Assembly: GCA_010093705.1 (NCBI GenBank) | Contig: MU006096.1 | Location: forward strand, 235,558-299,557 | Direction of reading: 5' to 3' | Length of the DNA: 64,000 nt | Origin: Patellaria atrata CBS 101060 | Lineage: Eukaryota | Part shown: piece after piece, positions 4,048 to 48,438 of the stretch | Numbering within the stretch: position 1 is the stretch's first letter | How the letters are laid out: each line of letters opens with the position of its first letter | The notes under the pieces: model-generated | The model's database searches: none | The model's input: the letters and a program-made list of their open reading frames with translations, nothing else | What the model was told of the DNA's origin: nothing | Program-made: the position numbers and the translations under genes

Positions 4048-4342
4048 GTGGGCGTTTTCAACGTATTCGTCGCGGTTGGACGCTCATATTGCATACATCT
4101 ATCGTTCTCATGAGGGTATACTCATTCCCATGGGAGTTGCTTCAATAAAGTAGTTTGTGGTGGATAAAAGCACAAATGATTACTTCTATGTTGTGTAGGA
4201 AGAGGTGATGCAGGTTCAAGGACGCGTCTTTCGTGTTCTCCCAGACGACAGGCAACACCACGATTACTTCAAATGCATCCAGCATGAGAATGCGCAGGAG
4301 AGCAACTCTACTTACCGTAACCTTTTTTCAATTTGAGAGAGA

Positions 4343-7300: not shown

Positions 7301-10191
7301 GTCAGGCCATACCTGGTCCATTATAGCCTCAGAAATGACATCCTCACTCAATATGGATAGCGTTACAACCGGCACAGTGAGTCTACAGGTGTTAATAGTG
7401 CAGATATGCATGCGATTGATATCGAACGGTTCTTTCCTTAGGCGCGGTGCGAACGCTGGCCCTCTATTTATCCCTATTCAAAGAGCCGCGTTGTCTGTTT
7501 TGCAAATCATCTTGCAAAACCCGAACTCGTCAGCCCTTAAAGAACTGACACTCGAGATACCCCTCATAGACCGGCTTAATATGTCCTTGAACGAAGCAGA
7601 CAGCACTCTACAAGGCCCCTTATTGGATGCAGCTATAGCTGCGCTAAAGGTCCGGTTCGATAGTGCTCCTATACCCGCGAAGGAACCACATCAGAGGAAG
7701 CCATCTAAAGACCTTGCTTCTCCGACCTTCCGTGCTAACCCATCGTCCGAACAGTGGGAGAAGCCACAGACCGCTCAAACAGCCGCGCCCCCTTCACAAC
7801 TTGTTGAATCTATTCGCGCAGGATTCGCATCGCCGTATGCTAGACTATGTCTCGACAAATGGGTAGACTTCCTTGCGGAAGTCCTTCCCTTGTATGCGGA
7901 TACAATATTCCAAAATCTTCTACCATTAGTAGAATGCTTTTGTGGACAGATCGGTCAGGTTTTCGATCAGTTTGAAATGATCTTCCGAGAATCTATATCT
8001 CCATCAATTGCTCCAGAACCAACACTGATATCGCTTATGAACGGATTAGAACAGATCCTTGCGAGTGCTCACCAACGTCTGTTGATGGAAGAAGCCAAGA
8101 GCATCGCCAATAGATCACCAGAGCAGCCGCAAGGCTTTTTCGGAAATATGGTCTCTGGTGTCTTTTCTGCTGAGACGAACCAATCAAGAAGCACTACCGC
8201 AAACAGTAGGCTAACGGTCATCCTCTGCTTCCAAGATACCGTGCGGATATGTTTTAAGGTATGGTCCTGGGCAAGTTATGGGTCAAGTCAAGGGCAACAA
8301 GATCCTGTTTCTCTGGCTTCCTACGGATACACTTCTATACGTATGCGGAATAGGGCGAGGCGTATGCTAGAGCACCTCTTTGCCGCAGAATCGCTTGAGT
8401 GCTTAGAGACCTTGGCTGTGGTATGGAGAAAATCGTCACCTTCCAGCTCCTCTTCTACCGCAGTATTAGGCCTCTTAAATGTTCTCGACGGCTCTAGGCC
8501 TAAGAATATCATTCCTGCTATATTCGATGCGGTATATAGTCGTACAAACCCTTCCGCTCTGGACGCCGCCCGTACCTCCAGCCTTACTTCCGATCTAGCA
8601 GATACTGATCTTGTAGCTTTTCTAGTTGACTACACTCGCTCTCTAGAAGATGATGCCATGGATGACATCTGGCCTGATTGTCTCGCTTTCCTGCGTGACG
8701 TCCTCACGAATCCACTACCTCATCGCCAGGTCCTTCCGATATTACTGGACTTCACAGCTATGCTGGCTGAGAAGGTAGACAACACAAACTTTGGAGAGCA
8801 GAAGAAGATGCGAAAGGAATTAGGTGTACGTACAGTTATACACTCACATTAAATTAGTTTGCTGACGTTTGGAATAGGATATCTTCATGCGGCTTTTAAC
8901 GGCTACGTTCACTACACGATCTCTAGGTTACCTCCAGGAGACTCCACAATCACACCATGACGAAAAGGGTATCCTTCCGGAATCGAAACAGATGGATGTA
9001 GTCGCCCTTCTTTCCAGGATTGTGCCAAGGTTACAATTAGTCCTTGTCGATAACGACCGTATAGCCAGTGCAGCAGGTACTATATCCAGCAATGTTATTT
9101 CACCAGCAATTCGCGCGAAAACCTTCCCAGAGAACATGTCTCGCCATACTCTAGATCTCATGTACCAGGTCGCCCGCGTAACGCACAGTTCCAAAGTTTG
9201 GAAGAAGGACGTATTGGACGCTTTCAACGACCCTAGATTCTTCTCTACTCCAACATTGCTCGCAAAGGAGCTCTGGCTCCCCATCCTCCAACAATGGACG
9301 CTCAGCGACAAGGAACGCATGCCTGAACTGCTGTCTCGAATTTCCGCTCCGACAACCGCAGGCATCATGTTCGGTGTAGGAGCCACCTCTGCCCGACTCG
9401 AGGCCGACCGTAGGACCCAACTTAACCTCAAACGCATTGCCGTTATCATTCTCGCTGCTGCAGAAGACACATTCACAACTTCTCTCTCGGGCATAGAAGA
9501 AAAACTAGTGGAACTCCTCTCCGCAACACCCATCTCCTCCCCTTCGTCTGCCACTCGCGCCGAAGTCTTCATCCTTCTCCGCGCCTTAGTTCTCAGGACC
9601 TCTCCCATTCATCTCGCCGCGCTCTGGCCCCTCATCACAGCGGAACTACAAGCTGCGATCCGCTCCACGCTCCCGGACGCCAGCGCGGAGATCGCAGAGA
9701 AGTTTGCGAACGCGGCACTGCTCCAGGGCTGCAAGCTCCTCGACGCACTCGTGACACTCGCTCCCGACGACTTCCAGCTCCACGAATGGCTCTTCGTCAC
9801 CGATACCATCGACGCAGTCTACCACCCGCCAGACTGGCGTCCCATCGCCGCCGTCGATGAGGTCGCGGAAGCATTGGGCGAGGCTTTCGTGGAGGAATCC
9901 GGGAACTTGGAGAGTGGAGCGTTCGCCCATGGTGATGCGGGGACCGGGAAGGGTACGTTCATCGGTCCTATATTGGATGGGTTGAGGAACGAGGTGGGCG
10001 ATGTGGCGGATCTGAAGGCGTTGAGTAGGACCGAGTTTGTAGCGAGGGTGTTGAGGCCGTTCTTTGGGAGCTTGAGTATTGGCGCGTTTGAGGCGACGTA
10101 TAAGATGGGTGGCGTGGAAGGGGGTCTCAGGGAGAGAAGGGATGCGGCTGTGCAGGGGTTGTTGGAGGATTTGTTTGATAGGGGTGTATGA
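4343..10191 (+). CDS. DOP1: Dopey family protein (Dop1/DopA), multi-exon
   Basis: Spliced N-terminus DWADYISFLGRLLK and LPSGVHQKSIEVY; RRDMSLNRRLWAWFLG; C-terminal FQLHEWLFVTD; ORFs 4929-8852 and 8887-10191 joined by a short intron. Confidence 0.93.
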
Positions 10192-10558
10192 GGTGCTTTG
10201 CTTGTGCTGTCCTTTCCTTTCATCTCTTCTATTACTAAACTCATATGAGATAGTGGCTAAAAGTGTTTCCATGATATTGATGGTGTGATTTCTACGTCTG
10301 TATGTCCTCTCTATCTAATCGCTCAGAAAAATGATGCTGCATATGGTGTGAGGACCAAGGATATATTGTACCGCGCAGAGTTACTCCCTATAAAAACAAC
10401 CAGAACAATTTCCAAGAAATAAAGTAAAAGTAGAAACATTCACGAACAAATCGTCTAGGTTTAGATGAAGTGCGTCTTAAGTAAATTCCCAACAGGACGC
10501 CGTCACTCGCCTACTCAAAAGGTTGCAGAAATAATTCAGAAACGGGGGTCTTGGCCCT

Positions 10559-12388
10559 TTAATAAGCACCAGCATCCTCTGACTCTTCGAGATGAAAGTT
10601 GCCCGTATGCAATCCATTCAGTACCATTCTACCTTCCTCAGTAAGATCTGGCTTGCCAAGCGGCGTCGTCGCGGCGGTGAAAAACCTTGGTTGCCACTCC
10701 ACACCTTTCTCCTTCCGTTCAGTAGCCTTCTGGCGTTGCCGCTCCTCAAGCTCGGTCTTGAGCTGGGTGGCGAGAGAATACTGTTTGGATAGGATGGCAT
10801 TAGTGACTTGTGACCAGAACTTGCGGGACTCGTTGGGAAGTTGCTCAGATTCGGGGGGGATGAGCTTGGGTACTGGGAACAGAGGTGTTAGATCAGTGAG
10901 GAGAATTTTGTCTTTGGCCTAGGGAACGTCAGTAAGGTTGGTTAAGGTTAGCAGTGTTGTTTGGGGACATACAGAGGCCTTCTTTATGTCTCCTGAGCCG
11001 AGAGTGTAAAAAATCTTTTCCATCCACGAGCCGTCGATGCGGGCTAACACATCCTTGGTTGGGACATCTTTGAGCTTCGTGATGTTGTCATTCTCTGGAT
11101 CGTAAGTAAATACTACGCCCTCGACTCTGTTCTGTGATCTACCCAGCCACCCCTCTTCCATGTACTGCAATATTATTTTTATCCTTGTTTTAGCGCAGGT
11201 AATGAAGCATGTATCAGCAACTGATACGCTTAGTGAGCCTGACTAGGTTAGTATATCGTAGGTTTTCGATTTAGACTCAATGACCTTACCCCTAAGGAGT
11301 CCTCCAAGGTGAGCCGCCGGATGAGTAAGTTGGTATTCCTCATTATCCCGTTTCGTTAATGTGATAAAAATGCCAAGGTTGTGTGCACCGGGTACTACCC
11401 TGATACTCGTTCCCGTGAATTTTGCGCTAAGCTGGTCGAAACCCCGTGCTACAATACCCTTCTCAGGACAGTCCACATAGAACGCAGATACCGGAGGATG
11501 ATGTGATGTTTGTTCTGTGAGATATGACACAACTATTGGTTGCTTTGGTTTACCAGATGAGACAACCTCTTGCTTCTTGGTTGGCATCTTAGGAGCAGGG
11601 TCCGTGGGCTCTATAGGTGGTGCAGTGTCCTCTACCTCCCAGTTACACTGTGAGGATTTAGCTTTGACTTGATGCTTCACGGGAATTGCAACATACTCTG
11701 AAGAACTCCCCAAGTGTCGAGTTGTACGGTTTACAGGGTTTGCCTTTGACATATTTCTGCATGAGATAATCAGTCCGGGCAGTTATATATCATACTACAA
11801 GTACTACGCACGAGATCTTTTGTGAACCAAAACCTCAGAACTTCCAGTATGCGACCTAACGGTTCTTCGGAGTTACCAATGCTATACTGTTCTTAGCCAC
11901 AGATGTCACTCGGGGTTTTTATTGAGATCCACATACGCGATAAACGTCTCCGGTCTGTCCAGGTAGCCCCAATATTCTTAAAAGGGGTCAATATATGTTC
12001 TTTGTAGAAGGGAGACTGAGCCGCCAACGTACCTAGATTTGGTGTAGGTTCGAGCAGCTGGGCAGGCAGCGAGAATCTCACAGAAGCGATATCTGAAACT
12101 CCGATGAACCTACAGCATAGTTGAGGTTAGCATCACGTTATCGTCCTTCCATACGCGTCCCTAGATCTCTAGAATATGACGAATCGGAGTCCCACTGGAG
12201 CGATGGTTACCATACCTACGTAGAATACCAAGGAACGTTTTCAATTTTGATTGTTCGTCCGGGTCTTTCTCGATAGGTGCATCCTTGACTGGCGTTGACG
12301 TCCTCGACGGGTCGGCGGAACTGACCATTACGCTGGCCATGGGACGTCCCTCGGAGGTGCTATCAGCACCTGCTGGGGTGGTAGCCAT
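10559..12388 (-). CDS. Oxysterol-binding protein-related lipid transfer protein, multi-exon
   Basis: OSBP fingerprint EQTSHHPPVSAFY; RFSLPAQLLEP; last exon ends ...GLHTGNFHLEESEDAGAY*. Confidence 0.9.
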
Positions 12389-13003
12389 GGTGGGGTGGCT
12401 ATGAGTAGTTTGAGGAGGAGTTTTGTCGGTTATTGTTTATAGTGAGGATATTTTGAAATTCAGTTTTTGTAGGGTGATACAGTATCTTTTGAGAAGGTAG
12501 ATGGTAGGAGTGAAGTTATGGAGACTGAGCCTCCACTATCTTGAATCATATCTGGAACTGCCCTTAGGTTGTGCCCGGGCTTGATCGCTGACGTATAAAA
12601 AGTAGCACTAAGCTCACTTCTGCTAGTCATGATAAGTCATCTACTTTCAAAACACAGACCGCGCCTTTTCCCGCTAACCAACCGATTCCGCACGACTTTT
12701 AAAACATCATCACGGGGAATGATAGCTTGGACGAGATGCAGCAATGGAACCAGCTTGATTTTCATTGTAACATTATACAAATCATCTAAGCATTATACTC
12801 CTTGTACTAACAATACATGTGATGTTAGTAGTGTCAATTACTCATCCCATTCATGAACTGGTTTTCGAGCCCTCTTTGATAGGAGAAGGATGCACCTCAC
12901 CCGTGTCTTAAGCTACCACCAACGGTATCACCAGATATATCCACAGCAATATCCTACTTGCGCTTGTTGGTTGGGACAATGTGTATGTTCCCTACTTCAA
13001 TCC

Positions 13004-15680
13004 CTACCACTCATCCTCCCAAACACACCATGCTCCTGTAGTAATTGCGCCAGGAATACTGTTGAATAGCTGCACATTGTAATGCTCATCTGTTCCCGAT
13101 GCGGTTCCAGAAAGCCTCTCGAGTACAAGCCATATGTCGTGATGTTGTAACATGGCGGGATCGAGATCAAAATCCATAATGCGCACGCCGTTCTCAGGGT
13201 CAGCGTACTCTCCTTGATTTGATGTGGCCAGGATTCTCTTTCCTGCGCGGCGCCCTAATTGCAATGACATTCGCAATGGGCTTCGAGTCCTAACCTCATC
13301 GTCTTGTACGCTATCATCAAACCAAAGGGGTCTACTAGCATATTTAAATTTCGCAACGAGGTTCGTCCGAACTATTCGCTTAGGTATGATAGGAGCAGCC
13401 ACCCGATTCGCACCCGGACCGATGTGAGCACCTGGGATCTCCATAAGACTACGTCCTGCGCCTTCTCTTGGAATTGGCTCCAAAGTGACTTCGGAGGTGG
13501 CATCAACCATGAGCGAAAATTCGGCTTCTCTGTTCGCCTGGAACGTGTTGCAGATAACGGTATATTTCCCTGCAGGGAGAAATGCATTGAGTTCTGCGTA
13601 AGCACTCCCGTGTCGGTGTTCCCCAGAGTCGGTAATAATATCAATGCGTCTCACGGCGTAGACTCTCTCACCTTTGCCGTGTAGGAGCTTAAAGTGAACG
13701 GGGAGACTGTCTACAGAAGTCTGCAGCAGCAAAGCCATATCTGCCCGTTCCCTCAAGACAAGGCGAAATTGCGGATTCTGGGAATATATCGGGCTATCCG
13801 GATTTCCCCCGGCTGTAGCAGTTGTCGAGGCCCAGGCACCCGTTATACGCGTGCGGAATGGGTATTTTTGGGTCGCATGCGAAAGACTACTTGGTGATTC
13901 GGAAAATGCGCTAAGTGTGAAGTTTCGTGACCTACTCTCGAGGTCTTCCCCAGAGACAACTACGGTGTAGAGAGATGAGCTCGGCGGATTAAATCGCAGC
14001 AGAGTTTGCCCGCAATTGACGTGGGGGACACGCTGCAACGAAGGTTCCCTAAGATAGACGCGGCGCCCTTGAGTATCGAATACATAAAGACTAATGAGTC
14101 CAAAGGTATCCCCTCTAACAGATAAATCAGTTCCGGTAGCCTGATCTCCAGTATGAAAGCAAATGGCATCCTCGAAGTGACAACACAAGAGTAACCACGT
14201 GGCTTCCCCAGCCTTACCAAATATAGAGAACTGGGGGTTATCTACGAAAGCTGTGTTGCTAAAATCCTTTGATACACGCCAGGCGAAATGTATATCTTCC
14301 CGAAATCGAAAGAGGCCAGGGTTCCAGTTAACGTAGAGGGATTCAAAAAGCTGGAATGCTTCGTTCATAGTGACCCAAAAGGTTCCCTGGGGGGCCTTTT
14401 CAACGAGTTGATCTGAATCCTTTGGAGATGATTTGTGGGTATCTGTGAATTCAAGGCTCGAGGGGATTTTTGTGCTGCGCGATGAAGTTCCCGCTGCCCA
14501 CGGGTTTTTGAGAAGAAGGTACTTCTGGTGGTCCGTCTCTTTCATATCTAGAACGGCATAGTCATGTTCACTTTCTAACCCATTTAGCTCTTCTGTATGA
14601 CGGTCCATTTTGCCTGTTCCGATAGTAATCATTACATCCCCATACCGGAAACTATTATAAAGTGACTTCCACACGTCACGCGCATTTGGGTCTCTCCTAC
14701 GGATGAGATTAATTACGTTTCAAGCGAGCATGGAACATAAACTGTTACCATTGAAGGAGTATTTGCTCCGGGATCCAACCGGTCAACACCCAAAGGTCGG
14801 TTGCGGAATTGCTCCCTGGGAAATCATAACCTCCTCGGACTTTCAAGTACGCCTTCTCAAGCAATGCCGGCCATAGTAGGGCCGGGTTATTTCGATCAAT
14901 TACGTGGAGGATCTTGTCCGTTTTAGACACGGGAAGTTTGTCGTCAATTACGACTTTCCGGTAACAACCGTTAAAATTAAGTCGGACAACGTACTTCCCA
15001 TTAAGCGACGTAATGGGGCTCTTTGTATGTTTGTTATGAGGGAAGAAACCTAAGGAAAGGATCTAAAAATTAAGAAGGTCCAACGATAGAAAGTAACTCA
15101 CCTACCCTTGGATGGCCCCTTTCCACGCGAGCACTTTCTGCACAAAGACTTGCCACGACCGAGCAGTCGGACGCCGCGTCTTGGACAAGGTCAGTTGGTA
15201 CCGTCGAATCCATGATGGGGCTCATAACGGTGTCCATGCTAGAGCGCATTGAGGGTGGAGGAAGTGCGTCTGCTGGTCGTTTCCAGCCATCCAAAATCGC
15301 GCACTGTTGATCGGATAGATGCAGTTCATGATGATCACTACAATAGACGGACGTAAGTCAGTATGTCATATAACTGAATGACAGGTAACAAACCAGAAAA
15401 GGTCTTCTCCTTTTTTTAACAAGAAGTCATCGTCACTCGGGACGCTTTTCCAAGGCGGAAATTTACACCCATTCAGTTTTGAACCCTTAAGAAGCAGGAT
15501 TTCCTCCGCCGTCGATAGTAAACGGCTGTTAGAAGGTTCTCGTAATCGCTTGATTTTACCCAAGATTGGTGTTCCCTGACAAATCAATTAGTGAAGCATC
15601 AGTGAGAGGGAACTGTGTAGCTCGACATTGATCTCCTTTTGCAGGTCTCTCATGTGAATTGTATCTGGCGCTGACGCCAT
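13004..15680 (-). CDS. palB: Calpain-like protease PalB/Rim13, multi-exon; 5' end uncertain
   Basis: Catalytic triad motifs QDAASDCSVVASL, EHDYAVL and LLKNPW; ALLEKAYLKVRGGYDFPGSN; C-terminal domain with YSQNPQF. Confidence 0.88.
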
Positions 15681-16492
15681 GGAGTTCTTTGGTAGCGGAT
15701 TTAGAGAATTACAATCTGTCATTGAAGTATTACAGTAGATGGGAGTGCTGGGCTCTTATGCTGAAAGGTTACAATTGTGCGTAGATGCGTTGCAATGTTG
15801 TTATTTCTTTTTCGTTCAGACACAGTTCCATCAAAGACATTCGGGAATAGATTTAGTTCTACGGTACTTTACTTAAGAAGTGTCTCTGGGCTATGCTGAG
15901 CAGGATTGAGCTTCACTTAGATAGTTTACTGAAGGCAAAGATCAGCATTCGGTATGTTGAAAATTCTCTGCGAGTCTTTAGTCTCAGTATCGAGGAGGAC
16001 GGAAGAGTCCTGTTGTAGGTCGAAGTTGAGATTATACTTTCTAGTTCATAAGTACTTGGTGGTGGCACCGGGCGGCTCATTCGGGTCATCTGTGGCGTCT
16101 ATAGCGAATCTAATCTAATCTTAGTATCAAATCCAATCGCTCATAATAAGTTCGCTTCTAGATCATGACGCCGATGTGCCTCGGTCCCCCGGATTCATAT
16201 AGCCATGATCACAACTCCGCTATCGTCTCACCTACAAACTTCCCGTCCTCCTATCAAATCCCACGAGATATCTTTCATATTCTCTGCCTTTGTTTCCAGT
16301 CACGTATTATTGTCTTCTTTAACATCATTCTTTTGCGCTCGAACTAAAACTATTCTTGCTCCCTTGCTTTATCTTCTTTTCGGCCATGCAAAGTTGAAGT
16401 CTTCCAATCAATCCCTCTTTCTCCGTATTCTCCCTGCCCTTACCCCCCTCTTGCTCGCCTAGTGGGGTATTGAAACTCTCAATATAAATTTT

Positions 16493-17676
16493 ATGGCAGG
16501 CCAATCAAAAGAAGCAGCACTACCACCATGGGGCAATGCAGTTGCTGGTGCTGCTGGAGCTGTACTGGCGAATGCCCTAGTATATCCCCTTGACATGTAA
16601 GCTATACAACACGAGTTTAAAGTTCAGGTGTATCAGAAACTCGAGATATACCCCTTGTCTTTCTAGACACAATTACTTATACGCTGTTCCTGTACTGATC
16701 GAAGATAACATAGCGTTAAAACCCGTCTTCAGGTACAGATGAAGCGCGATCCCAACGCCGTAGATTTGAATCCAGCCGACGGACAGCACTACACTTCCAC
16801 AATCGATGCTATATCCAAGATCGTGCAAAATGACGGCGTAAAGGGGCTCTATGCTGGAATGCCTGGCGCACTTATCGGTGTCGCCTCGACGAACTTTGCG
16901 TACTTCTACTGGTACACCGTTGTGCGGACGTTCTATCTGTCATATCAAAAGCTCCCTAAGCCACCGAGCACCACTGTGGAGTTATCACTTGGAGCTGTTG
17001 CTGGTGCTATTGCCCAGCTTTTTACGATCCCAATAGCTGTTGTGACAACGAGGCAACAGACCCAATCTAAGCTGGAGAGGAAAGGTATGCTTGAAACCGC
17101 AAAGGATGTGGTTAATAGCGAAGACGGTTGGACTGGATTATGGAGAGGGATGAAAGCTAGCTTGGTATTGGTCGTGAATCCAGCCATCACATATGGAGCA
17201 TACCAACGATTAAGAGAATATCTGTTCCCTGGAAAGCAGAATCTGAAACCTTGGGAAGCATTCTGTAAGATTTCTATACCCATACGTACTATCGAGGTGA
17301 CTAAAAGACTGTAGTTCTCGGTGCATGTTCAAAAGCCCTAGCGACAATCGCAACCCAGCCTCTCATTGTTGCTAAAGTTGGCCTCCAGTCAAAACCACCA
17401 CCCGCACGTAACGGCAAGCCCTTCAAAACCTTCGTTGAGGTGATGCAGTTCATTGTTGAACACGAAGGTTTGCTTGGGCTATTCAAAGGCATTGGGCCGC
17501 AAATCATGAAAGGACTTCTTGTTCAGGGATTCCTAATGATGACGAAGGAGAGGGTAGAACTCATGTTCATCCTATTATTCCGCTATCTACGTCAATTACG
17601 CGCAGAAAAGCTGCAAAAGCTTGCGGACGTCGCAGCTGCGAAAGCAGCGCAAGCCCGACCCGTTTTGATCAAGTAA
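16493..17676 (+). CDS. ANT1: Peroxisomal adenine nucleotide carrier (mitochondrial carrier family); exons 16493-16596, 16714-17264, 17315-17676
   Basis: Carrier motifs YPLDIVKTRLQ, PIAVVTTRQQ and QPLIVAKVGLQ; STNFAYFYWY; LVLVVNPAITY; canonical introns. Confidence 0.87.
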
Positions 17677-18089
17677 GGGGATGCTGAATACATATTATCT
17701 AAGGAGGCAAAATTTCAATCTTCTTGTATATTCTTACGATTGCTATAGAGCACTTCATGTCAGATGGTGGAGGTGATTTATTGCATTTACACCATTTTTC
17801 AGTTTCAACTGTTTACATATAACAGTAGATAGGGGAGTTCGAATGGCAGGCGATGCGAGAATTGCAAATATCCGCAATTGATCTTATGCGAACCCATAAA
17901 GATGACTATACAACCTAGTAGAAGATCAAATAGGATAGAATCAATCTCAGAAAGTTGTCATGGCCCCCATCGCCAGTGTACTTGTAAACAACGCGCTATT
18001 CGTACAGCATCCTTGTGCATATCTCTCGTTTGTGTGCCCAGTTTCCCCTCGACATTCCAATTGCCGGTAATTCAGCTCAGGGAATCGCT

Positions 18090-18736
18090 CTACTTCTTCT
18101 TCGACGATGCGTCGAACTTCTCCTCCAATGTCCTCACATAATTTTCTATCCTCTGCACTGCAGCTTGTAATGCCTATAATGCACAGTTAGTCCAAGTATG
18201 ATCTCCCCGTACACCTACGCCCCAATAATTCCCCTTTCCACAACCGCCTTCCAGACACAAGTTCCAACACCGACGAATCAGTCAAGGAGAATAGATCGCA
18301 GACTTACGTAGATATCCGTCGTCAACAACTCATTCGACACCTTATACTCGTCCAGGACGTAATAGTACATGCCCGCGCCCGAAGCCACCGAGCCGAGCAA
18401 GAAACCGAAGATACTGCAAAGATCTCACATCAGCCATGACTCTAATCCTCACTCATACTCCCTCCACAAATCCGTTTATCCCATCTCCATACACCTGCAT
18501 CCCCAGTGCCAATTATCCCACGCTCTTGCTTCTTCTCCTCAACAAACAGGCATAAAAACTGATTGCAAAGAGAATCTAACTCACCCTCCCCTAAAAGCAC
18601 CCACGGGTTTCTTCACCGCCACCGGCGCTGCAGCCGCATCTCGCAGTATGCCGCTCGTCTGGAAGCTCCTGGTCTGGCGCGTGAGGGACGGTTGGACGGT
18701 TCGCCGGACGGCGGGAAGCAGGAAGCGGGATGCCAT
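18090..18736 (-). CDS. Small conserved fungal mitochondrial membrane protein, 3 exons
   Basis: Arg-rich presequence MASRFLLPAVRR; KKPVGAFRGG/IFGFLLGSV transmembrane segment; coiled-coil tail ending DASSKKK*. Confidence 0.8.
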
Positions 18737-19150
18737 CGTGCAGAGGTTCTTTCGTGAAGTGGACTGTAGGGTTCGATGGTGTATGGTTCGTGTGTTGTAG
18801 TTGAATTGGACGCGGGTTGAGATGGAGGTTAGGTTGAGGTGTGTTTTGGCGGTGGTGACGGGATCGGCAGCTGCAGCATGGAAGCTCTCCGCACGAGAAG
18901 CTCTGCTGGGTCCGGGATGGAGTGCTTGGCGTCTGTCAGAGGGATTCGACGTCACGTTAGTGGAGGAACTTGGAGGCTCTGGGATGATGGAGATAAAAGG
19001 AGGTAAGTAGCTTTATATCACGAGAGTACGGCTCGCCCGGTACCCTGTCATTATACTCCTATACCACCACCCTTACCCCCCTCCCCCCTCCCCAAAACGT
19101 GCCTCTCATCAGTCATCACTCCCCTCTCCAACCCAGTACCTGACCCTCTC

Positions 19151-19158
19151 CTATATAA
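19151..19158 (+). promoter_or_regulatory. TATA element upstream of putative Pol III unit
   Basis: CTATATAA about 30 nt upstream of the tRNA-like 5' end at 19186. Confidence 0.5.
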
Positions 19159-19185
19159 TCAACAGACAGCAAATACCTTTCTAAT

Positions 19186-19361
19186 TCCTCGATGGTCTAG
19201 TTGGTCCTTTCCTTCTGTCAAAGTCAATTTCGTATTTCCTTCAGTCAATGTTCGAGTCTCGTTAACACCAACCATTAAACCTCGGAAGATAAAAGATAAA
19301 CTGCCTCGGGGCGGGTTTACTTGGCCCTCTTCGGAGGGTGTTCTTTTTGTATTTTTTTTTT
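19186..19361 (+). ncRNA. Putative Pol III ncRNA with tRNA-Asp-like head and structured 3' domain (not a foldable tRNA)
   Basis: A box TGGTCTAGTTGG 19193-19204; B box GTTCGAGTC 19250-19258; hairpins 19297-19319 and C(UUCG)G 19324-19339; T5 at 19344-19348 and T10 at 19352-19361. Confidence 0.55.
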
Positions 19362-19657
19362 GCTGCTATTTAAACCAGTGCGTAGTTAATCTATATAGAG
19401 ATATCTTTATAGTGTTTACTACAAGGTGGATTGCTCATGACCAATTATACCCCTATGCTCCTCCCTACTTCAAGAGTTACTACGAAAACAAATCTAGATT
19501 TGCGGTAGCTGCACACGAAAATAAACCGTATCAAACATTTCTCACTCAATGATAGCTTAGCTATACGAATCGCGGATACAGACTCAAAATCTATTCATGG
19601 ATATATATACTATAAATACGGGTAGGCGTACAGTGGAACGACCTAGAAATACAAGCT

Positions 19658-21121
19658 TCAAGTGACCTTCGAAAACATATTCGACTTCGGATGTGCATGG
19701 TTAGGCGGCCTCGATGCTCCGCAAAGCCCGCAGCGACCGTAATCTCCAGCATTGATGTAGGAACCTCCCTGACATGCCAGGCTCTTACAGCGCCAGTTGT
19801 TCGGCATCTTAGCTGGGTTCAGCACATTTGAACAAGCTGCACATAACACCGTGTCAGGATCGTTGACGAGAGAACATACAGGACATATGTCGTTCGAGAT
19901 GGGAGGTTTAGAGCCTGGGAATTGTGCGGTCTTGTCTTGAGTTATATTGTCATGTGAGGCCATACGTCTGGATTTCGCGGACTTGGTCATGGCTGATCGG
20001 GGACGGGTATGCGAGATGGGCGCATTCGAGGACTTATTCCGACTGAGTCGCCGGGTTGACGCTGGCCTTGATGATTCAGAAGCGTCTGTTGTTTGATCCT
20101 CATCTAAGTCCATTAGTTTCTTGGGTTTCGACTGCAAACTTGGAGGATCTTCATGGTGTATGTAGTTAAACGAATATATCTCATCCATCTCGCGGTGAGC
20201 GTTCGTATCGTCGTCTTCACCCTCGCAGACTTTGACCAAGCCACGTCCTTTCCCGTCAGTCATTCTCTTCCCATCGATATCGATATCCGCTATCTGACTC
20301 GATCCTTCGTCATAGTCCGAGTCCGACTCGCTCTCCGACCGATCTTCCACCTTTACTTCCACTTTTTTCGCTTGGTCAAACCTCGCAAGCGCTGCCGCAG
20401 CCCTCAATTCCCTACCTCTCGCACTTCCAGCCACCCGAGGCTTCCCCTTAGACTTCTTCCCGTTCTCCAGTTTAGCCTTAATCTCTTCATCCGCCCCTAA
20501 AGCTGACCCACCAGCCCCAAACTTCTTCAGGATCCTCCTCTGCTGTCTTTCCGCATAACTCATCTTCTCCTTCTCCGCCTTCCTCTTCCTCTTCCCTCTC
20601 CCGCTCCGATACGTACCTCCACACAGTTGCTTCACCTCCCCTCCCGCAGCCGGCATCGTCTCCGTCTCATACCGTCCACTCAACAGCGACGTACCCCGTC
20701 CCCACATCCCCTCACCTATATACCTCCTCTCCCACAACTCTCTCAGCTCCGCCGCATACGCATCCCTAATCTTCCAAAACGCGCCCGAATGATTCATCTG
20801 CTTGCAATGCGCCAACTCATGCATCATAACCATCTGGACATGTTTAAACGGCAACCAAGCACCACCCGGCGCCTTCAAAACCAATTGGACGACCTCGCCC
20901 GCGTTGAAGTTCCGCCCCACGAACTCTCGGTTTGCGGGGAACTCCTCGAGCGCCATCACTGCGATGTGGTTTCGTTTCATGACGGGGTAGACGATGGCGG
21001 CGACGCGGTTGAGGAAGTCGAGGGCGAGGTCGTGGTCGATGCCTGGGAGCGGTTTGATGAAGTTTATCAGGGCGTTTGGGCGCTGCGTGCGCTCGTTGAT
21101 GCGTTCGAAGCCTAGAGGCAT
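19658..21121 (-). CDS. WLM-domain (Wss1-like) metalloprotease with C-terminal zinc fingers
   Basis: LEEF..N.EFVGRNFNAG; HELAH zinc motif; SHP-like FGAGGSALG; VIM-like RELRAAAALARF; C-terminal CxxC clusters. Confidence 0.9.
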   Translation of the reverse strand: MPLGFERINERTQRPNALINFIKPLPGIDHDLALDFLNRVAAIVYPVMKRNHIAVMALEEFPANREFVGRNFNAGEVVQLVLKAPGGAWLPFKHVQMVMMHELAHCKQMNHSGAFWKIRDAYAAELRELWERRYIGEGMWGRGTSLLSGRYETETMPAAGGEVKQLCGGTYRSGRGKRKRKAEKEKMSYAERQQRRILKKFGAGGSALGADEEIKAKLENGKKSKGKPRVAGSARGRELRAAAALARFDQAKKVEVKVEDRSESESDSDYDEGSSQIADIDIDGKRMTDGKGRGLVKVCEGEDDDTNAHREMDEIYSFNYIHHEDPPSLQSKPKKLMDLDEDQTTDASESSRPASTRRLSRNKSSNAPISHTRPRSAMTKSAKSRRMASHDNITQDKTAQFPGSKPPISNDICPVCSLVNDPDTVLCAACSNVLNPAKMPNNWRCKSLACQGGSYINAGDYGRCGLCGASRPPNHAHPKSNMFSKVT

Positions 21122-21605
21122 TGTGGCGAGTGGTTGGTGGTATTTGAGATCGTGGATATGGTGTTTCTGTGCAGAGCGTGCTTTTCAAGGATATGATAGT
21201 GCTGGAGCTGACCTCATTTCGTAAAGGATCCAAAGTGACTTGTAAGCCACCGTCATCGGTTATCTACATGTTGAATTGAAATAAGTATGGGAATGACCTC
21301 CGCGGGATAAGTGAATGGTGGTTCAAGCGGTGAAACCTCGGGTCTAATTTTAATACTACTCCAAACTTTCTTCCCCTTTTTCTATCCAACTATATATTTA
21401 TATAGTGGACTCCGCAAAAATCATATAGCAAGATGACCAGATATACGTAAACGATAAAAAGCGAAACCCGGACCATGGTTAAAGCTCAGGGTGCTACCCG
21501 AGGCAAAAGCTCTATATTCGCCAGTACGGCGTACATCGGCATCAAGACATCTATCTTCCTACCTAGTCTCTTTTATAGAAACGGGTTTTCTCTTGCCGGG
21601 TGCTA

Positions 21606-21705
21606 NNNNNNNNNNNNNNNNNNNNNNNNNNNNNNNNNNNNNNNNNNNNNNNNNNNNNNNNNNNNNNNNNNNNNNNNNNNNNNNNNNNNNNNNNNNNNNN
21701 NNNNN
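21606..21705. other. Assembly gap (100 N)
   Basis: Run of N followed by an A9 tract. Confidence 1.
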
Positions 21706-41900: not shown

Positions 41901-42228
41901 GGATGCCTTCCATGGTTATAGGACATGAATAATATCATTCAACTAAAATTCTCAAAACTCTAATATCTACCTTATAGTAGATGTCTACAACTGAACATCG
42001 TGCTCTTACTAAGACGTGTGAGATAAGGTAGACCAGCTGTGGTTAATTGTTTTTCCGTTCCCGACTGAACGACATCATCACTTCAAGCTGTAAACATATC
42101 ACAAAAGATGTGATCTTTCCAGTCTAATTCATTGTTGTAAATCGATAAGCCGCTCTTGTAAAACCCTTGATTGTTTGATTCTCATGCAGTGTACAATTTG
42201 TTAAATAGCGCCAGCATAAAGCATTTTA

Positions 42229-43627
42229 ATGGTCCATAACGTACATCAGCATTGGCGGCGTCTTGTCCCTTCTCAACGGGTCTCCCTAAACTCCCTCTTT
42301 ACTCCAGAGTATAATCGTCTATGGTCTACGTCGCTGTTACGATCGCATATTAGCACTTGTCGTAGCTTTCATAGACAATCAGTCCAGAATGCGCGGGTCG
42401 ATCAGGGCTCCAACCATCAGGCTCATATTCCACATAGAGTAGTTCAGTCAACCCGCATTCGAGATTATGCTCAGCACCAGAAAGTACATAGTCAACCTCC
42501 GTCTGCAAATAGTCTCGGCTCAGGTGAGCACCAGAGGGAGGAAATGCCTAGATACCGGTACCCCTTTGTGCTTCTACAGGTACCTAACGTCCTCCGTCCA
42601 ATACTCTTTACTTTAGGAATTGGTATAGGATCATTCTATCTTGCCGGTTTTCTCAACCGTCGAGAATTTCAAGATTTAAGTCAGAACGCGGGTAGGCCTT
42701 TGACGTCGGTAAATGAAGCTTTTGCAGCGAGGAAGTTACTCGAACAAGCAAATGCTCAGAAGGAAGTCAACTGGCTTCAGAAACACGTTCCGTTATCCCT
42801 AGTAAAACTGTATGCTACGGTAAAAACGAAGTGGCTTAATACGTCAGATGGGCAGCGGGCAGCAGTACTCGTCACTGGGCTCAACCTTACCGTTTTCGTG
42901 GCGTGGCAGGTCCCAAAAGCTGGAGTATCACTTTGGCTTGCGAAGACCTTTTTACACCATCCATTGTCTGGACGTAGCTACACGCTTCTTACATCTGCTT
43001 TCAGTCATAATGTTTGTCTCCCCCTTACCCCACGCATTCCCTGGGCACTAACCCTCTGTCTAGGCCTTCTGGCACGTCGCCCTCAACATGATCGCCCTCC
43101 AAGGCTTCATCCGTGCAACCAGCGACTACCTGGCCACCAAGCAATCAACGAACCCCGTCTGGAGAGCCGATAACCCCGACCGTCACATCCGCGCTGACCC
43201 GAACCCCATATACCGCACTCTAGCCTTCTACGTCACCGCCGCCACTGTCTCGAGTCTCGGCTCGCATCTCGCCAACGCTCTAACCCTCATGAGGAAGGCC
43301 AGCGGTCCCACATTTGCCGCCGCACGAGCTTCTTTACGGCCATCACTAGGTGCTAGTGGTGCGGTTTATGCACTTGCAACGCTTACCGCGCTCTCGTTCC
43401 CGGAGACAAGCGTAAATCTCTTCCTAGTGGTTCCTATACCCATAACGATTGGGATGAGCGGCATAGTCGCTTTAGACGTCGCGGGTGTTCTGTTGCGGTG
43501 GAAGATGTTCGATCATTTTGCGCATTTGGGCGGGGCTGCGTTCGGAGCGGCGTACTTCTATGGGGCACCGAGGTATAGGGAGTGGATCACGAAGAGGAGA
43601 AGGGGGGAAGGGGTGAGATCGAGATGA
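42229..43627 (+). CDS. Rhomboid protease, PARL/Pcp1-like; 2 exons
   Basis: LLTSAFSH..HVALNM; catalytic SLGASGA; DHFAHLGGAAFG; Arg-rich N-terminus. Confidence 0.87.
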
Positions 43628-44631: not shown

Positions 44632-45683
44632 CATTCCGATCTTGGAGATATCATTGTCGTGAATGCCTGGACATTCTCCTACAAATCCCACCTCTGCTAG
44701 GACTTTCGGATGGTGCTGACGTAGAGGATCCCTTCACTCTCATCTCATACAGAACATCCCCTCAGCTAACTGCTCCATAACCAAGCGCATTGGCTCTTAA
44801 CCTGTAAACGTGTTACAGGTGGCGAATAGGACTGAAGTAGTGAAAAACCAATTTCCGTCCGGCCTGAGCTCCATCGTTGGGTGGACGAGGAATTTTTGAA
44901 AAGCTCTTTCTGGACTTCTTCGATTCGAGACTCGTTTCCGGGGCAGCTGGGGATGGCGCATCGGCTTCAAAGGGGCGGAGTGCTCAGAGTTGATGACCGA
45001 GTGGTCTAACCACAATGGTGTTGACGGTAGAGGATGACGGCATTGAGTGGACAAGTGGAGAGACTCAAATAATCTTTTCTCGGGGCTGAAATTCAGATAT
45101 CCACATGAAATCCAAGTCAAGATGAGTGATACATTGGTCGGATGTGCCAAGTGGTTATTATCAGATGAGCGACTGCACTCCGGTATCGTCGTCACTTCTG
45201 TCTACAAACATCCGGAGGTCAGAAGACCCATCCTCTAGTCCAAAAGTGCTCGAAGACGTTGTGACTTCCACAGGAGGCAACAGATGTTCTTAGAATCCAG
45301 CGAAGGAAGACTAAGATAATCCTATTATGATGTTGAGAAGCATCGTCGACGAGTTGGACACATCTCTTGCAAATCTACATGACTTACTTGATGATCAACG
45401 GGATAATTGACAACCCACTACGGCCAACTAGCTCTGTTGTGGGTCATACAGACAGCGGTTATTCATCGAGGTATACTCAGAAAGAACAGTGGAACCACGG
45501 CAGCACATAGCATAGTTTCTTTAGAAGATTGACGTCATCATTTCTGAGTTCCTTGGTGGTAGGAGCATCCAGCGACATATTTGCGCTATGTCCAAGAAAG
45601 TTGAGTGCGATTTGCCAAGCGTTCTCGATCGTCTGTTGCTGGGTGTGGAGAAGAGAGCTCTGATTCAGATTTGTCGTAGCCAT
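44632..45683 (-). pseudogene. MAT1-2-1: Fragmented mating-type HMG-box gene relic (MAT1-2-1-like)
   Basis: N-terminal IENAWQIALNFL..DVNLLKKL; CPLNAVILYRQHH 45053-45015; KIPRPPN 44896-44876; ILY-(R)QHHPKVLAE 44729-44692 (1-nt deletion); PGIHDNDISKIG 44670-44635; stops and frameshifts between the pieces. Confidence 0.78.
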
Positions 45684-45717: not shown

Positions 45718-46170
45718 TCATCCTTGCATAGTAGTGTCGCCGTCATCTTGAGGACCTGATGTATGTTGACCGAGTCTGTTCAGCACGCCCTTCAGATACT
45801 CAATTCGCTCAGTCAAGTAAGCAATTTCCTCTTCTTGGTCTTCAACAGTCCGATCGATGCTTGGTAATGCTTTGATCGCTTGTCTGGCTTTCTGAATCTT
45901 GACTTTCAAAGCACCTGCAGCTGTTTGTAGGTTCTGAATTTCAAGAGGCTGTTCGTTCGGATAAGGTTGAAGTAGAGCATCACCAGAAGCACCTGCACCA
46001 CTTGAATTGAGTGAAGGTGAAGAAAGTAGGCGGGAGAGGAGCTGGTGGAGTGGAGGGAGGAAGTCGAAGGTTGACGGGTCTGGTAGTTGTAGAGCTGCTG
46101 TCGGGCCGGTGGAAGTTGAGCTTGCAAACGAGGTATTGGCATGCGGAGCTGGAGACGCGTGACTCGACAT
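45718..46170 (-). CDS. MED9: Mediator subunit 9 (Med9/Cse2)
   Basis: LPDPSTFDFLPPLHQLL..LKVKIQKARQAIKALPSIDRTVEDQEEEI. Confidence 0.82.
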   Translation of the reverse strand: MSSHASPAPHANTSFASSTSTGPTAALQLPDPSTFDFLPPLHQLLSRLLSSPSLNSSGAGASGDALLQPYPNEQPLEIQNLQTAAGALKVKIQKARQAIKALPSIDRTVEDQEEEIAYLTERIEYLKGVLNRLGQHTSGPQDDGDTTMQG

Positions 46171-46683
46171 GCTGGTTTCAATAAATGGTTTGCTTCTAGA
46201 TCGAACGATAATCGAGCTTGCTAAGAGCGAGTGCTCTTCTCCTCCAGAGGACTGAAAACGAGCAGTTTAGGAGCTTTGACGCGTCTATCGAACGCGTTGG
46301 GATACCGTAGTTCTATGACGTTCGAAGGGTAGTGAGATAGGAGAGCTTATAAGTCAGCAGTAATTCACATGAAACGATCATCAATCATCAATCATCAGAT
46401 CGGAAGACAGATTGAGGACAGATGGGATCAAACAACGAGGGTCAGGGTGAGGTTTAGGGTTTCTGTAGTTCTAACCTGGTGTCGCTCCAGGAGCTTGGCT
46501 ACTGTGACGTTGGCGGGGTTCCGGTTCGGGCAACTTTTCTTTTCTCAACGTCCCAACCGGAGATCTTAAGGAGACCTCCTCCCCTTCAATTGCTTCTTTA
46601 TCCCAATATCCCTCACATTTTCATTATCCTAGTCAATCGTAACTCACAATATTGTATTAATTAGAAAAGTCTTCCAAGAAGCT

Positions 46684-48438
46684 ATGGTCAACGTTGAGCA
46701 GAAAACAGTCCTCAGTAAGCCCCCCACCCCACTATAGTCTTATCTGGAAAGTGCTTCTTAAGGATCACAGTATCATGCTAATACGATGTATAGTCGTCAT
46801 TGACGGATGGGGCATTCCGGGTGAGAATTCGCCTAAAGAGGGCGATGCTATTCTCGCCGCAGACACCCCATATATGGATGAGTTCTCCAAAGAAGGATCA
46901 TCAACCGCTCAAGGTTTCACTGAACTCGAAGCTTCCTCTCTAGCTGTTGGCCTTCCCGAAGGACTGATGGGAAACAGTGAAGTAGGCCATCTCAATATCG
47001 GCGCTGGAAGAGTCGTCTGGCAAGATGTTGTAAGAATAGATCAGACGATCAAGAAGGAAGAGCTCCCCAAGATCGAGAATCTTCAAAAGTCCTTCAACAG
47101 AGCAAAGGATGGTAACGGCCGCCTACATCTTCTAGGATTGGTCTCCGATGGCGGCGTACATGCCCACATCAAACACTTGATTGCGCTCCTAAAAGAAGCA
47201 AAGAGGATTGGTGTACCTAAAGTTTTCATCCACTTTTTCGGAGATGGTAGAGATACGGATCCGAAATCCGGGCTCGGCCACATGAAAGACCTCATCGGAA
47301 AGACTGAGGAGATAGGTCTTGGGGAGATCGCAACGGTTGTTGGAAGATATTACATAATGGACCGTGACAAGAGATGGGAGCGTGTTGAAGTTGGTCTAAA
47401 AGGGGTCGTTCTCGGTGAAGGAGAGGACACCGATGATGTCGTGAAGACTATCCAGCAGCGTTACGAACAAGGTGAAACGGATGAGTTTTTGAAACCGATC
47501 ATTGTTGGTGGTGACGAGCGGAGAGTTCAAGGTACAACTACCCCTTTTCCATCCTCCAAGTCAAAAATCAATATTGACCCCTTACAGAGGGTGATACTTT
47601 GTTCTTCTTCAACTACCGATCTGACCGTGTTCGTGAGGTCACTCAACTCCTCGGTGGCTATGACCGAGAGCCTAGACCCGACTTCCCCTATCCCAAAGAC
47701 ATTCATCTGACAACAATGACCCAGTATAATACTAAGTTCCCCTACCCGATTGCCTTCCCACCGCAACACATGGGCAATGTGCTCGCAGAGTGGCTCGCGA
47801 AGCAAGGACTTAAGCAATGCCACGTCGCTGAAACGGAGAAGTATGCACACGTGACCTTCTTTTTTAACGGTGGCGTCGAAAAGCAATTCGACAACGAAGA
47901 CCGAGACATGATTCCCTCTCCCAAGGTAGCCACATACGATAAAAAGCCCACCATGAGCGCCATGGAAGTTGCAGAAAAGCTCTGTGAGAGAATTGAGAGT
48001 GGGAACTTCGAATTCCTGATGAACAACTTCGCACCTCCAGACATGGTTGGCCATACCGGTGTTTACAAAGCTGCTATCGAAGGCTGCGCAGAGACCGATA
48101 GGGCCATCGGCAAGGTCTACGAACAATGCAAGAAGAGTGGCTACGTGTTGTTCGTTACATCTGATCATGGGTGAGTCTTAATTGTAACTTCTCCAACTCT
48201 GTGATGACTAACGAAATTCGAAATTAGCAACGCGGAAGAGATGCTCAACGAAGAAGGTAACCCCAAGACGTCGCATACTACCAACAAAGTTCCATTCATC
48301 ATGGCCAATGCGCCTGGAAACTACAGCTTGAAGAAAACAGACGGTGTCTTAGGCGATGTTGCCCCCACGCTACTAGATGTGATGGGGCTTCCCAAACCGG
48401 AGGAGATGGGAGGTACTAGCTTGTTGGTCAAAGGTTGA
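46684..48438 (+). CDS. 2,3-bisphosphoglycerate-independent phosphoglycerate mutase, 4 exons
   Basis: VIDGWG, GLMGNSEVGH, SDGGVH, DGRD, GRYYIMDRD, NYRSDR, AETEKYAHVTFF, PDMVGH, TSDHG/N. Confidence 0.96.

What the first reader, a model, noticed from the sequence alone, without database searches (positions are those of the whole stretch)
44632..45683. Cryptic MAT1-2-1 mating-type relic away from canonical MAT-flanking genes
Seen (minus strand): an ATG exon MATTN..IENAWQIALNFL..DVNLLKKL followed by CTATGT, which looks like a mutated GTATGT donor. Further on lie the HMG pieces KIPRPPN, ILY(R)QHHPKVLAE and PGIHDNDISKIG, broken by stops, a 1-nt deletion and intervening DNA. Established (from recall): MAT1-2-1 has an N-terminal WQDALRHL-type motif and an HMG box like KVPRPPNAFILYRQHHHP..P...NNDIS, and usually lies near APN2/SLA2. 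Neither gene was recognised here; the neighbours are MED9 (stop ~35 bp upstream) and a rhomboid gene. Inference: an ectopic decayed copy recording a change of breeding system or dispersed MAT fragments, as described for Cercospora-type fungi.
Basis: partly seen in the sequence, partly recalled or inferred. Interest (0 to 1): 0.8.

Follow-up and report, generated by a model that had tools for sequence, protein, structure and literature searches.

The report
Scattered mating-gene pieces behind stop codons
The broken mating-type gene is real, and it is one of about ten such scraps in this fungus that together spell out its working mating-type genes roughly once over and mostly sit directly behind the stop codons of unrelated genes, an unexplained pattern that extends a known puzzle.

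Summary
The relic is real: five pieces (89% identical over 445 aligned bases) of this genome's own intact MAT1-2-1, which lies on contig C7 beside an intact MAT1-1-1. The isolate carries both mating types, so nothing was lost. The relic cannot encode an HMG box. It is one of 10 clusters, on 7 contigs, holding pieces of four MAT-cassette genes: MAT1-2-1, MAT1-1-1, a homeodomain-like gene and COX13. Pieces cover 81-93% of three genes almost exactly once (P 0.0004-0.002 each). 29 of 30 matches near a host gene are sense to it, and 7 of 10 clusters begin within 70 nt of that gene's stop codon (1.2 expected); here 2 nt after MED9. APN2, NVJ2-like and window genes show no such pieces. One intron is precisely missing; another cluster keeps one. 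Dispersed MAT fragments are known from Cercospora; I found no report of the stop-codon placement, but could not read the original papers. The scan noted one similar case in a lichen fungus (unchecked). Best reading: one cassette duplicate, partly RNA-templated, cut repeatedly and rejoined at gene 3' ends, now decaying. A role as sense RNA remains open.

The parts
45718..46170 (-). MED9, host gene; full length, stop codon at 45720-45718
   Evidence: PF07544 E 1e-16; C-terminus ends in register with homologues P0122 and P0123
45529..45715 (-). Piece 1: 32 nt upstream of the relic ATG (45683) plus most of MAT1-2-1 exon 1; begins 2 nt after the MED9 stop
   Evidence: 160 of 187 nt (85.6%) identical to the C7 gene, E 4e-59; the relic ATG aligns with residue 1 of homologues such as P0099, where the C7 gene has ATA and starts 4 codons earlier
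45279..45528 (.). Filler 1 (250 nt), replaces 87 nt of the mRNA and intron 1
   Evidence: no match elsewhere in the genome; no similarity to the cassette clearly above shuffles, best p 0.049 among 18 tests
45245..45278 (-). Piece 2: 34 nt of exon 2
   Evidence: 97%, E 3e-11
44986..45244 (.). Filler 2 (259 nt), bounded by a 7-nt direct repeat, contains the duplicate piece
   Evidence: pieces 2 and 3 overlap by 7 nt on the source gene
45015..45055 (-). Out-of-order duplicate of the HMG-box start (41 nt)
   Evidence: 88%, E 1e-9
44877..44985 (-). Piece 3: exon 2 up to the first HMG-box residues
   Evidence: 87%, E 1e-34
44730..44876 (.). Filler 3 (147 nt), replaces 7 nt of the HMG box
44638..44729 (-). 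Piece 4: first half of the HMG box with 1-nt and 3-nt deletions and 18 inserted nt; runs 8 nt across the intron-2 junction without the intron
   Evidence: E 8e-12 against the spliced gene; 7 of 8 nt match past the junction, chance 4e-4
42220..43627 (+). Rhomboid gene, convergent neighbour; its stop is about 1,010 nt from the relic's end (start coordinate is the open-frame start)
   Evidence: PF01694 on P0132; frames

Best explanation
The window relic is a non-coding share of one duplicate of the MAT cassette that has been divided among the 3' ends of unrelated genes. SHOWN: the source genes are the genome's own MAT1-2-1, MAT1-1-1, the homeodomain-like gene and COX13; 10 clusters on 7 contigs; near single coverage; sense orientation; start at the host stop codon; consecutive pieces often overlap by 7-21 nt, both across a filler within a cluster and between clusters on different contigs. 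INFERRED: (1) one duplicate arose, at least partly through RNA (one precise intron loss, no intron or promoter DNA recognisable in 9 of 10 clusters, genes that face opposite ways on C7 all face the same way in mixed clusters); (2) it was cut again and again by staggered breaks, which duplicate a few bases at both ends; ends were rejoined either over filler DNA (partly a foldback element) or to a break just behind another gene; (3) only joins that left the host protein whole and put the piece in sense in the host transcript survived, since antisense MAT or COX13 RNA would invite silencing; (4) the pieces now drift as host 3' untranslated or intergenic DNA.
For: Tiling: 865 of 1070, 918 of 1067 and 501 of 540 nt covered, doubly covered 30, 11 and 14 nt against 220, 243 and 138 when blocks are placed at random, P 0.0018, 0.0011, 0.0004. 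Stop adjacency: 7 of 10 clusters within 70 nt (1.2 expected, P 5e-6), 4 of 10 within 6 nt (0.12 expected); 0 of 10 have their far end within 70 nt of the next gene. Orientation 29 of 30 matches, the exception a 22-nt pyrimidine-rich match upstream of the host stop. Overlaps. pN/pS 0.50, pS 0.19, as expected for neutral copies of constrained genes; no CpA bias. Controls without dispersed coding pieces: APN2 region, NVJ2-like gene, window 2000-21500.
Against: Only 1 of 7 exon junctions is clearly crossed in spliced form, and the C13 copy of the homeodomain-like gene keeps an intron, so a purely RNA origin is not shown. No poly(A) tract in 6 of 6 flanks printed. Selection alone predicts joins spread over the 3' UTR, not piled at 0-6 nt. 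COX13 pieces carry fewer private changes (20) than the C7 COX13 pseudogene (39; p 0.018), so they are younger than it, came from the working gene, or are constrained. 2 clusters lie 265 and 692 nt from a stop and 1 has no host. Rearrangement is untested: MED9 has other downstream neighbours in the 2 fungal loci found, which are distant relatives. The null models are post hoc and far-side gene ends come from open frames, not annotation.
Confidence: 0.55

Rival explanations
1. The pieces work, or worked, as RNA: housekeeping transcripts carry the MAT-cassette exons once over, in sense, as decoys or licensing targets that shield MAT and COX13 mRNAs from small RNAs raised against unpaired idiomorph DNA, or as repair templates.
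For: One idea accounts for sense orientation, position inside the likely 3' UTR, exon and UTR content, single coverage, and the inclusion of COX13 (which has a second copy inside the cassette) but not APN2 or the NVJ2-like gene. Such fragments are described as expressed in Pseudocercospora and Cercospora (PMC13041039, passage).
Against: Pieces are 71-97% identical to their sources and are interrupted by fillers; they keep ancestral states that the C7 genes lost, so they are not kept in step; hosts share no obvious function; targets in essential genes would be costly.
Confidence: 0.15
2. Each piece is an independent capture of MAT or COX13 cDNA, by reverse-transcriptase template switching between mRNAs followed by recombination into the host gene.
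For: Gives same-sense chimeras, exon-only content and junctions in 3' UTRs; precise loss of intron 2. Cercospora fragments were read as RNA-derived (bioRxiv 2020.04.14.040725, Discussion).
Against: Independent captures should overlap far more than seen and cross exon junctions; COX13 pieces stop 0-6 nt from junctions instead; short end overlaps between different contigs.
Confidence: 0.15
3. Stop-codon readthrough or former in-frame fusions gave host proteins MAT- or COX13-derived tails, which selected the junction position.
For: 5 of 7 stop-adjacent clusters are in frame and open behind the host stop (14-85 residues; P 0.045, post hoc); 7 of 9 host stops are TGA.
Against: The window cluster and C8:908k are out of frame; only MED9 has a TGA-C context; pN/pS 0.50.
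Confidence: 0.07
4. The site is a former MAT locus or a lost idiomorph recording a change of breeding system.
For: The MAT cassette has been separated from APN2/COX13/SLA2, so the locus did move or break.
Against: Only the 5' half of one gene is here, none of the flanking genes, and the other parts lie in other clusters.
Confidence: 0.05
5. A cryptic functional MAT1-2-1 restored by splicing or editing.
For: An ATG in the ancestral position.
Against: 87 and 7 nt of the mRNA and everything after 8 nt of exon 3 are absent; frameshifts.
Confidence: 0.01

Closest known systems
Dispersed MAT1-1-1 / MAT1-2-1 exon fragments of Cercospora beticola (Bolton et al. 2014; seen only as described in PMC7368123 and bioRxiv 2020.04.14.040725)
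   Same: Fragments of both MAT genes at many unlinked sites beside an intact MAT locus; they largely rebuild the genes; mostly without introns; MAT1-1-1 and MAT1-2-1 pieces joined in one cluster.
   Different: Described there as at 'ostensibly random loci' in a heterothallic Mycosphaerellaceae species. Here both idiomorphs are intact, the fungus matches proteins named Patellaria atrata, the set includes COX13 and a homeodomain-like gene, and placement is non-random (sense, at stop codons). Concerted evolution could not be tested.
Expressed short MAT-related fragments in Pseudocercospora and Cercospora (Aylward et al. 2022, seen only as cited in PMC13041039)
   Same: Numerous short fragments outside MAT1, origin and function called unknown.
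   Different: Expression not testable here; position behind host stop codons would explain expression, but I could not see whether that paper reports it.
Idiomorph-captured COX13 of Coccidioides (as described in bioRxiv 2020.04.14.040725)
   Same: A COX13 copy lies inside the MAT cassette on C7.
   Different: Here that copy looks decayed, the intact gene stays with APN2 on C34, and further pieces are scattered.
Processed pseudogenes
   Same: One precise intron loss; UTR and exon content.
   Different: No single contiguous copy, no poly(A), one related copy keeps an intron.

Membership tests
MAT1-2-1 (source gene on C7) | HMG box with MAT1-2-1 proteins as named relatives | tested here: met
   PF00505 E 3e-17; hits named MAT1-2-1 include P0073, P0099, P0104, P0106, P0109; no tree was built
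MAT1-2-1 (source gene on C7) | MAT1-2-1 N-terminal region and intact frame in a MAT locus | tested here: met
   329 aa after removing two GT-AG introns; N-terminus matches P0073, E 3e-7 in a 120-protein set; 3.1 kb from an alpha-box gene, PF04769 E 2e-26
MAT1-2-1 (window relic) | Descent from MAT1-2-1 rather than another HMG gene | tested here: met
   only C7 matches in the genome; 103 against 25 bits among 8 HMG loci
MAT1-2-1 (window relic) | Complete HMG box in an open frame | tested here: not met
   second half absent, frameshifts; no Pfam match for 4 of 4 relic frames given
Cercospora-type dispersed MAT fragments | Fragments of both MAT genes at several unlinked loci, intact MAT elsewhere | tested here: met
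Cercospora-type dispersed MAT fragments | Fragments rebuild most of the exons | tested here: met
   81%, 86% (and 93% for COX13) of the spans tested
Cercospora-type dispersed MAT fragments | No introns | tested here: inconclusive
   no intron DNA recognised for MAT1-1-1, MAT1-2-1 or COX13 pieces; one junction spliced; intron 1 unresolved; C13 copy of the accessory gene keeps an intron
Cercospora-type dispersed MAT fragments | Present in isolates of either single mating type | not testable with these tools
   one genome, carrying both idiomorphs
Cercospora-type dispersed MAT fragments | Concerted evolution with the species' own MAT genes | not testable with these tools
   no related genome held; retained ancestral states argue against recent homogenisation
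Cercospora-type dispersed MAT fragments | Expressed | not testable with these tools
   no RNA holder listed
Processed pseudogene | Poly(A) tail and one contiguous copy between target-site repeats | tested here: not met

The most novel reading that the evidence does not exclude
Filamentous ascomycetes have a strand-aware process, or a selective pressure, that writes the exons of the mating-type cassette once over into the 3' ends of housekeeping transcripts, directly behind stop codons, where they act as sense decoys, licensing RNAs or repair templates for genes that lack a pairing partner in meiosis. This would explain the expressed MAT fragments of Cercospora and Pseudocercospora and predicts the same placement there.
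Probability: 0.15. Interest if true: 0.9.

Novelty: new variant of a known kind. Interest (0 to 1): 0.66.

Why it matters
Dispersed MAT fragments are an open question: their origin and function are called unknown (PMC13041039). This genome turns the question into testable rules: single coverage, sense orientation, start at a host stop codon, 7-21-nt end overlaps, and restriction to four cassette genes including COX13. Checking these rules on Cercospora genomes is a short computation that separates random retroposition from a targeted process. It also extends the phenomenon beyond Mycosphaerellaceae to a fungus carrying both idiomorphs. Practically, such pieces can mislead MAT typing by PCR or BLAST, and they preserve ancestral states that the working genes have lost.

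Tried and rejected
Expression: no RNA holder listed; the two runs behaved as DNA contigs without joints. Origin of the window fillers: no match in the genome, none to the cassette above shuffles, no credible Rfam match (1 hit, E 0.47). RIP as the cause of decay: transitions 205, transversions 103, but no CpA/TpG preference and no direction bias. Repeats that could drive mating-type switching in C7:17001-27000: only short, likely chance repeats. Synteny of MED9 and rhomboid: of 80 metagenome loci kept for the neighbouring phosphoglycerate mutase I examined the 2 that looked fungal (74% and 65% identity); both keep PGM-MED9, neither has rhomboid next or a convincing MAT piece; locus-tag comparison gave no shared genomes. 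The RPL21-side control was swamped by an AT-rich repeat (40 of 158 candidates scored) and is uninformative. An alignment of exon 1 with whole homologues misplaced the short rows and was not used. Rows dropped before counts: the C7 COX13 pseudogene, one 22-nt antisense low-complexity match, transposon hits to the cassette's middle, and pieces with E above 1e-5 for the mutation spectrum. Papers not held: Bolton 2014, Aylward 2022, Arzanlou 2010. Searches (listings and abstract starts) showed no report of stop-codon placement or of this species' MAT locus.

Full report
Observation. The window is G000:C8:235558-299557 in a 28.7-Mb assembly. Two DNA runs of one sample cover the stretch without differences.

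The source gene. An HMG-box search and an alpha-box search both point to C7. There, RPL21 is followed by an intact two-intron MAT1-2-1 (329 aa, minus strand), a small gene facing away from it, a decayed COX13, an intact MAT1-1-1 (324 aa) and an NVJ2-like PH-domain gene (the NVJ2 label is mine from PF15413 plus PF10296). The C7 protein's best hit is named Patellaria atrata and several further hits are named MAT1-2-1. APN2, an intact COX13 and SLA2 lie within about 9 kb on C34, with a Zn2Cys6 gene between APN2 and SLA2 and no MAT gene found. These are the usual MAT flanks (bioRxiv 2020.04.14.040725, passages). So the isolate carries both idiomorphs, and the cassette has parted from its usual flanks.

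Anatomy of the relic. Five pieces match the C7 gene: 396 of 445 aligned bases. Four are in gene order and one is an out-of-order duplicate of the HMG start. Fillers of 250, 259 and 147 nt separate them and match nothing else. 87 nt and 7 nt of the mRNA are missing, there are 1-nt and 3-nt deletions, and the copy stops 8 nt into exon 3, so no HMG box can be made. The last piece runs across intron 2 in spliced form (7 of 8 nt, chance 4e-4). At intron 1 a spliced junction and a mutated donor both fit a few bases and neither is significant. The relic's ATG matches residue 1 of homologues, where the C7 gene has lost it. Homology begins 2 nt after the stop of a full-length MED9.

It is one of ten clusters. 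Searching the genome with the cassette finds further pieces at C3:341.1-342.0k, C16:609.9-613.3k, C8:908.6-909.2k, C11:542.6-543.0k, C20:82.9-83.0k, C9:383.1-383.4k, C2:580.9k, C13:512.1k and C13:551.7-552.1k. They come from four genes only. APN2 with its neighbour, the NVJ2-like gene, and 19.5 kb of this window gave no dispersed coding pieces; the RPL21 side could not be tested. The search scores only the best candidates, so ten is a lower bound.

Three rules. (1) Single coverage: 81%, 86% and 93% of the tested spans of MAT1-2-1, MAT1-1-1 and COX13 are covered, with 30, 11 and 14 nt covered by two blocks against 220, 243 and 138 at random (P 0.0018, 0.0011, 0.0004). (2) Sense: 29 of 30 matches around the nine clusters with a host run with the host gene, including MAT1-2-1 pieces that follow MAT1-1-1 pieces at C3 and C16 although the two genes face apart on C7. 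(3) Stop-codon start: gaps of 2 (MED9), 33 (syntaxin-6 type), 69 (DUF3807), 39 (no family), 0 (RRB1-like WD40), 0 (Tom37/GST), 6 (helicase-Sec63, MER3-like), 265 (SET) and 692 nt (2EXR, weak); the C13:551.7k copy has no host (RRB1 and MER3 are my labels). 7 of 10 within 70 nt against 1.2 expected; none has its far end that near the next gene. Most intervals are convergent, where either strand is sense to one gene, so the informative point is this asymmetry. The null is post hoc and far-side ends come from open frames. In addition, consecutive pieces overlap by 7, 15, 16 and 16 nt across fillers and by 21, 9, 11 and 14 nt between contigs; the other between-cluster joins are gaps of 9-118 nt.

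Evolution. pS 0.19 and pN/pS 0.50 fit neutral copies of constrained genes; no RIP context bias. COX13 pieces are closer to the working C34 gene than the C7 pseudogene is (private changes 20, 9 and 39 over 291 sites). Fillers at C16 and C13 include remains of a foldback-like element whose full copy is at C4:1443k. 5 of 7 stop-adjacent clusters are in frame behind the host stop (P 0.045), a weak hint; the window is not one of them.

Mechanism. Single coverage argues for one copy divided up rather than many captures. Short end overlaps inside and between clusters argue for staggered breaks, repaired over filler or onto another chromosome end. Uniform sense and the absence of recognisable intron or promoter DNA argue for an RNA step or for selection against antisense transcripts. 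I put 0.55 on this account with the pieces now neutral. It does not explain well why joins pile up at 0-6 nt from the stop, which is why a function as sense RNA (0.15) and independent cDNA chimeras (0.15) stay open. Against an RNA origin: only 1 of 7 junctions is crossed, the C13 copy keeps an intron, and no poly(A) was seen.

What is known. Cercospora beticola has MAT1-1-1 and MAT1-2-1 exon fragments at 'ostensibly random loci' that largely rebuild a fused gene (PMC7368123, passages); they lack introns and were read as RNA-derived, and none were found in the Phyllosticta species examined (bioRxiv 2020.04.14.040725, Discussion part 1 of 2); Pseudocercospora and Cercospora fragments are expressed and unexplained (PMC13041039, passages). 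PMC7513301 (passages) added nothing. The original papers and any supplements were not available, so the stop-codon rule may already be in them.

Verdict. Observation confirmed; interpretation partly right. A new variant of Cercospora-type dispersed MAT fragments with a non-random, testable architecture. Interest 0.66.

Noticed in passing
window 19110-19371: tRNA-like A and B boxes, hairpin and T run, with three similar copies on C9 and C1; ARAGORN calls no tRNA in the window.
   Followed up: partly
window 42220-43627: Among proteins of 329 aa or longer, all 43 named non-self hits of the rhomboid are Basidiomycota or Mucoromycota (taxa judged from recall). May be patchy retention or an effect of the length filter.
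   Followed up: no
L015:2439-3260 (C7:19.4-20.3k): Homeodomain-like gene head-to-head with MAT1-2-1 (no Pfam hit). It has a stop where the C13:512k piece has a sense codon, and the C11 piece continues the frame, so the C7 gene looks shortened.
   Followed up: partly
L015:4128-4714 (C7:21.1-21.7k): Decayed COX13 copy between the two idiomorphs, 80-95% identical per exon to the intact C34 gene.
   Followed up: yes
L069 and L081 (C34:39-49k): COX13-APN2-Zn2Cys6-SLA2 without any MAT gene, next to an AT-rich block of 17-27% GC.
   Followed up: yes
L172:900-1700 (C4:1443.2-1444.0k): Palindromic foldback-like element with internal 12-nt subrepeats; remains at C17:286.6k, C16 and C13.
   Followed up: partly
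L071:1200-4960 and L065:3800-5300: Many short local duplications in the intervals downstream of the C2 and C20 clusters.
   Followed up: no
L086 and L087; window 45718-48200: The head-to-head PGM-MED9 pair is kept in both fungal metagenome loci examined.
   Followed up: partly
window 21606-21705: A run of 100 N.
   Followed up: no
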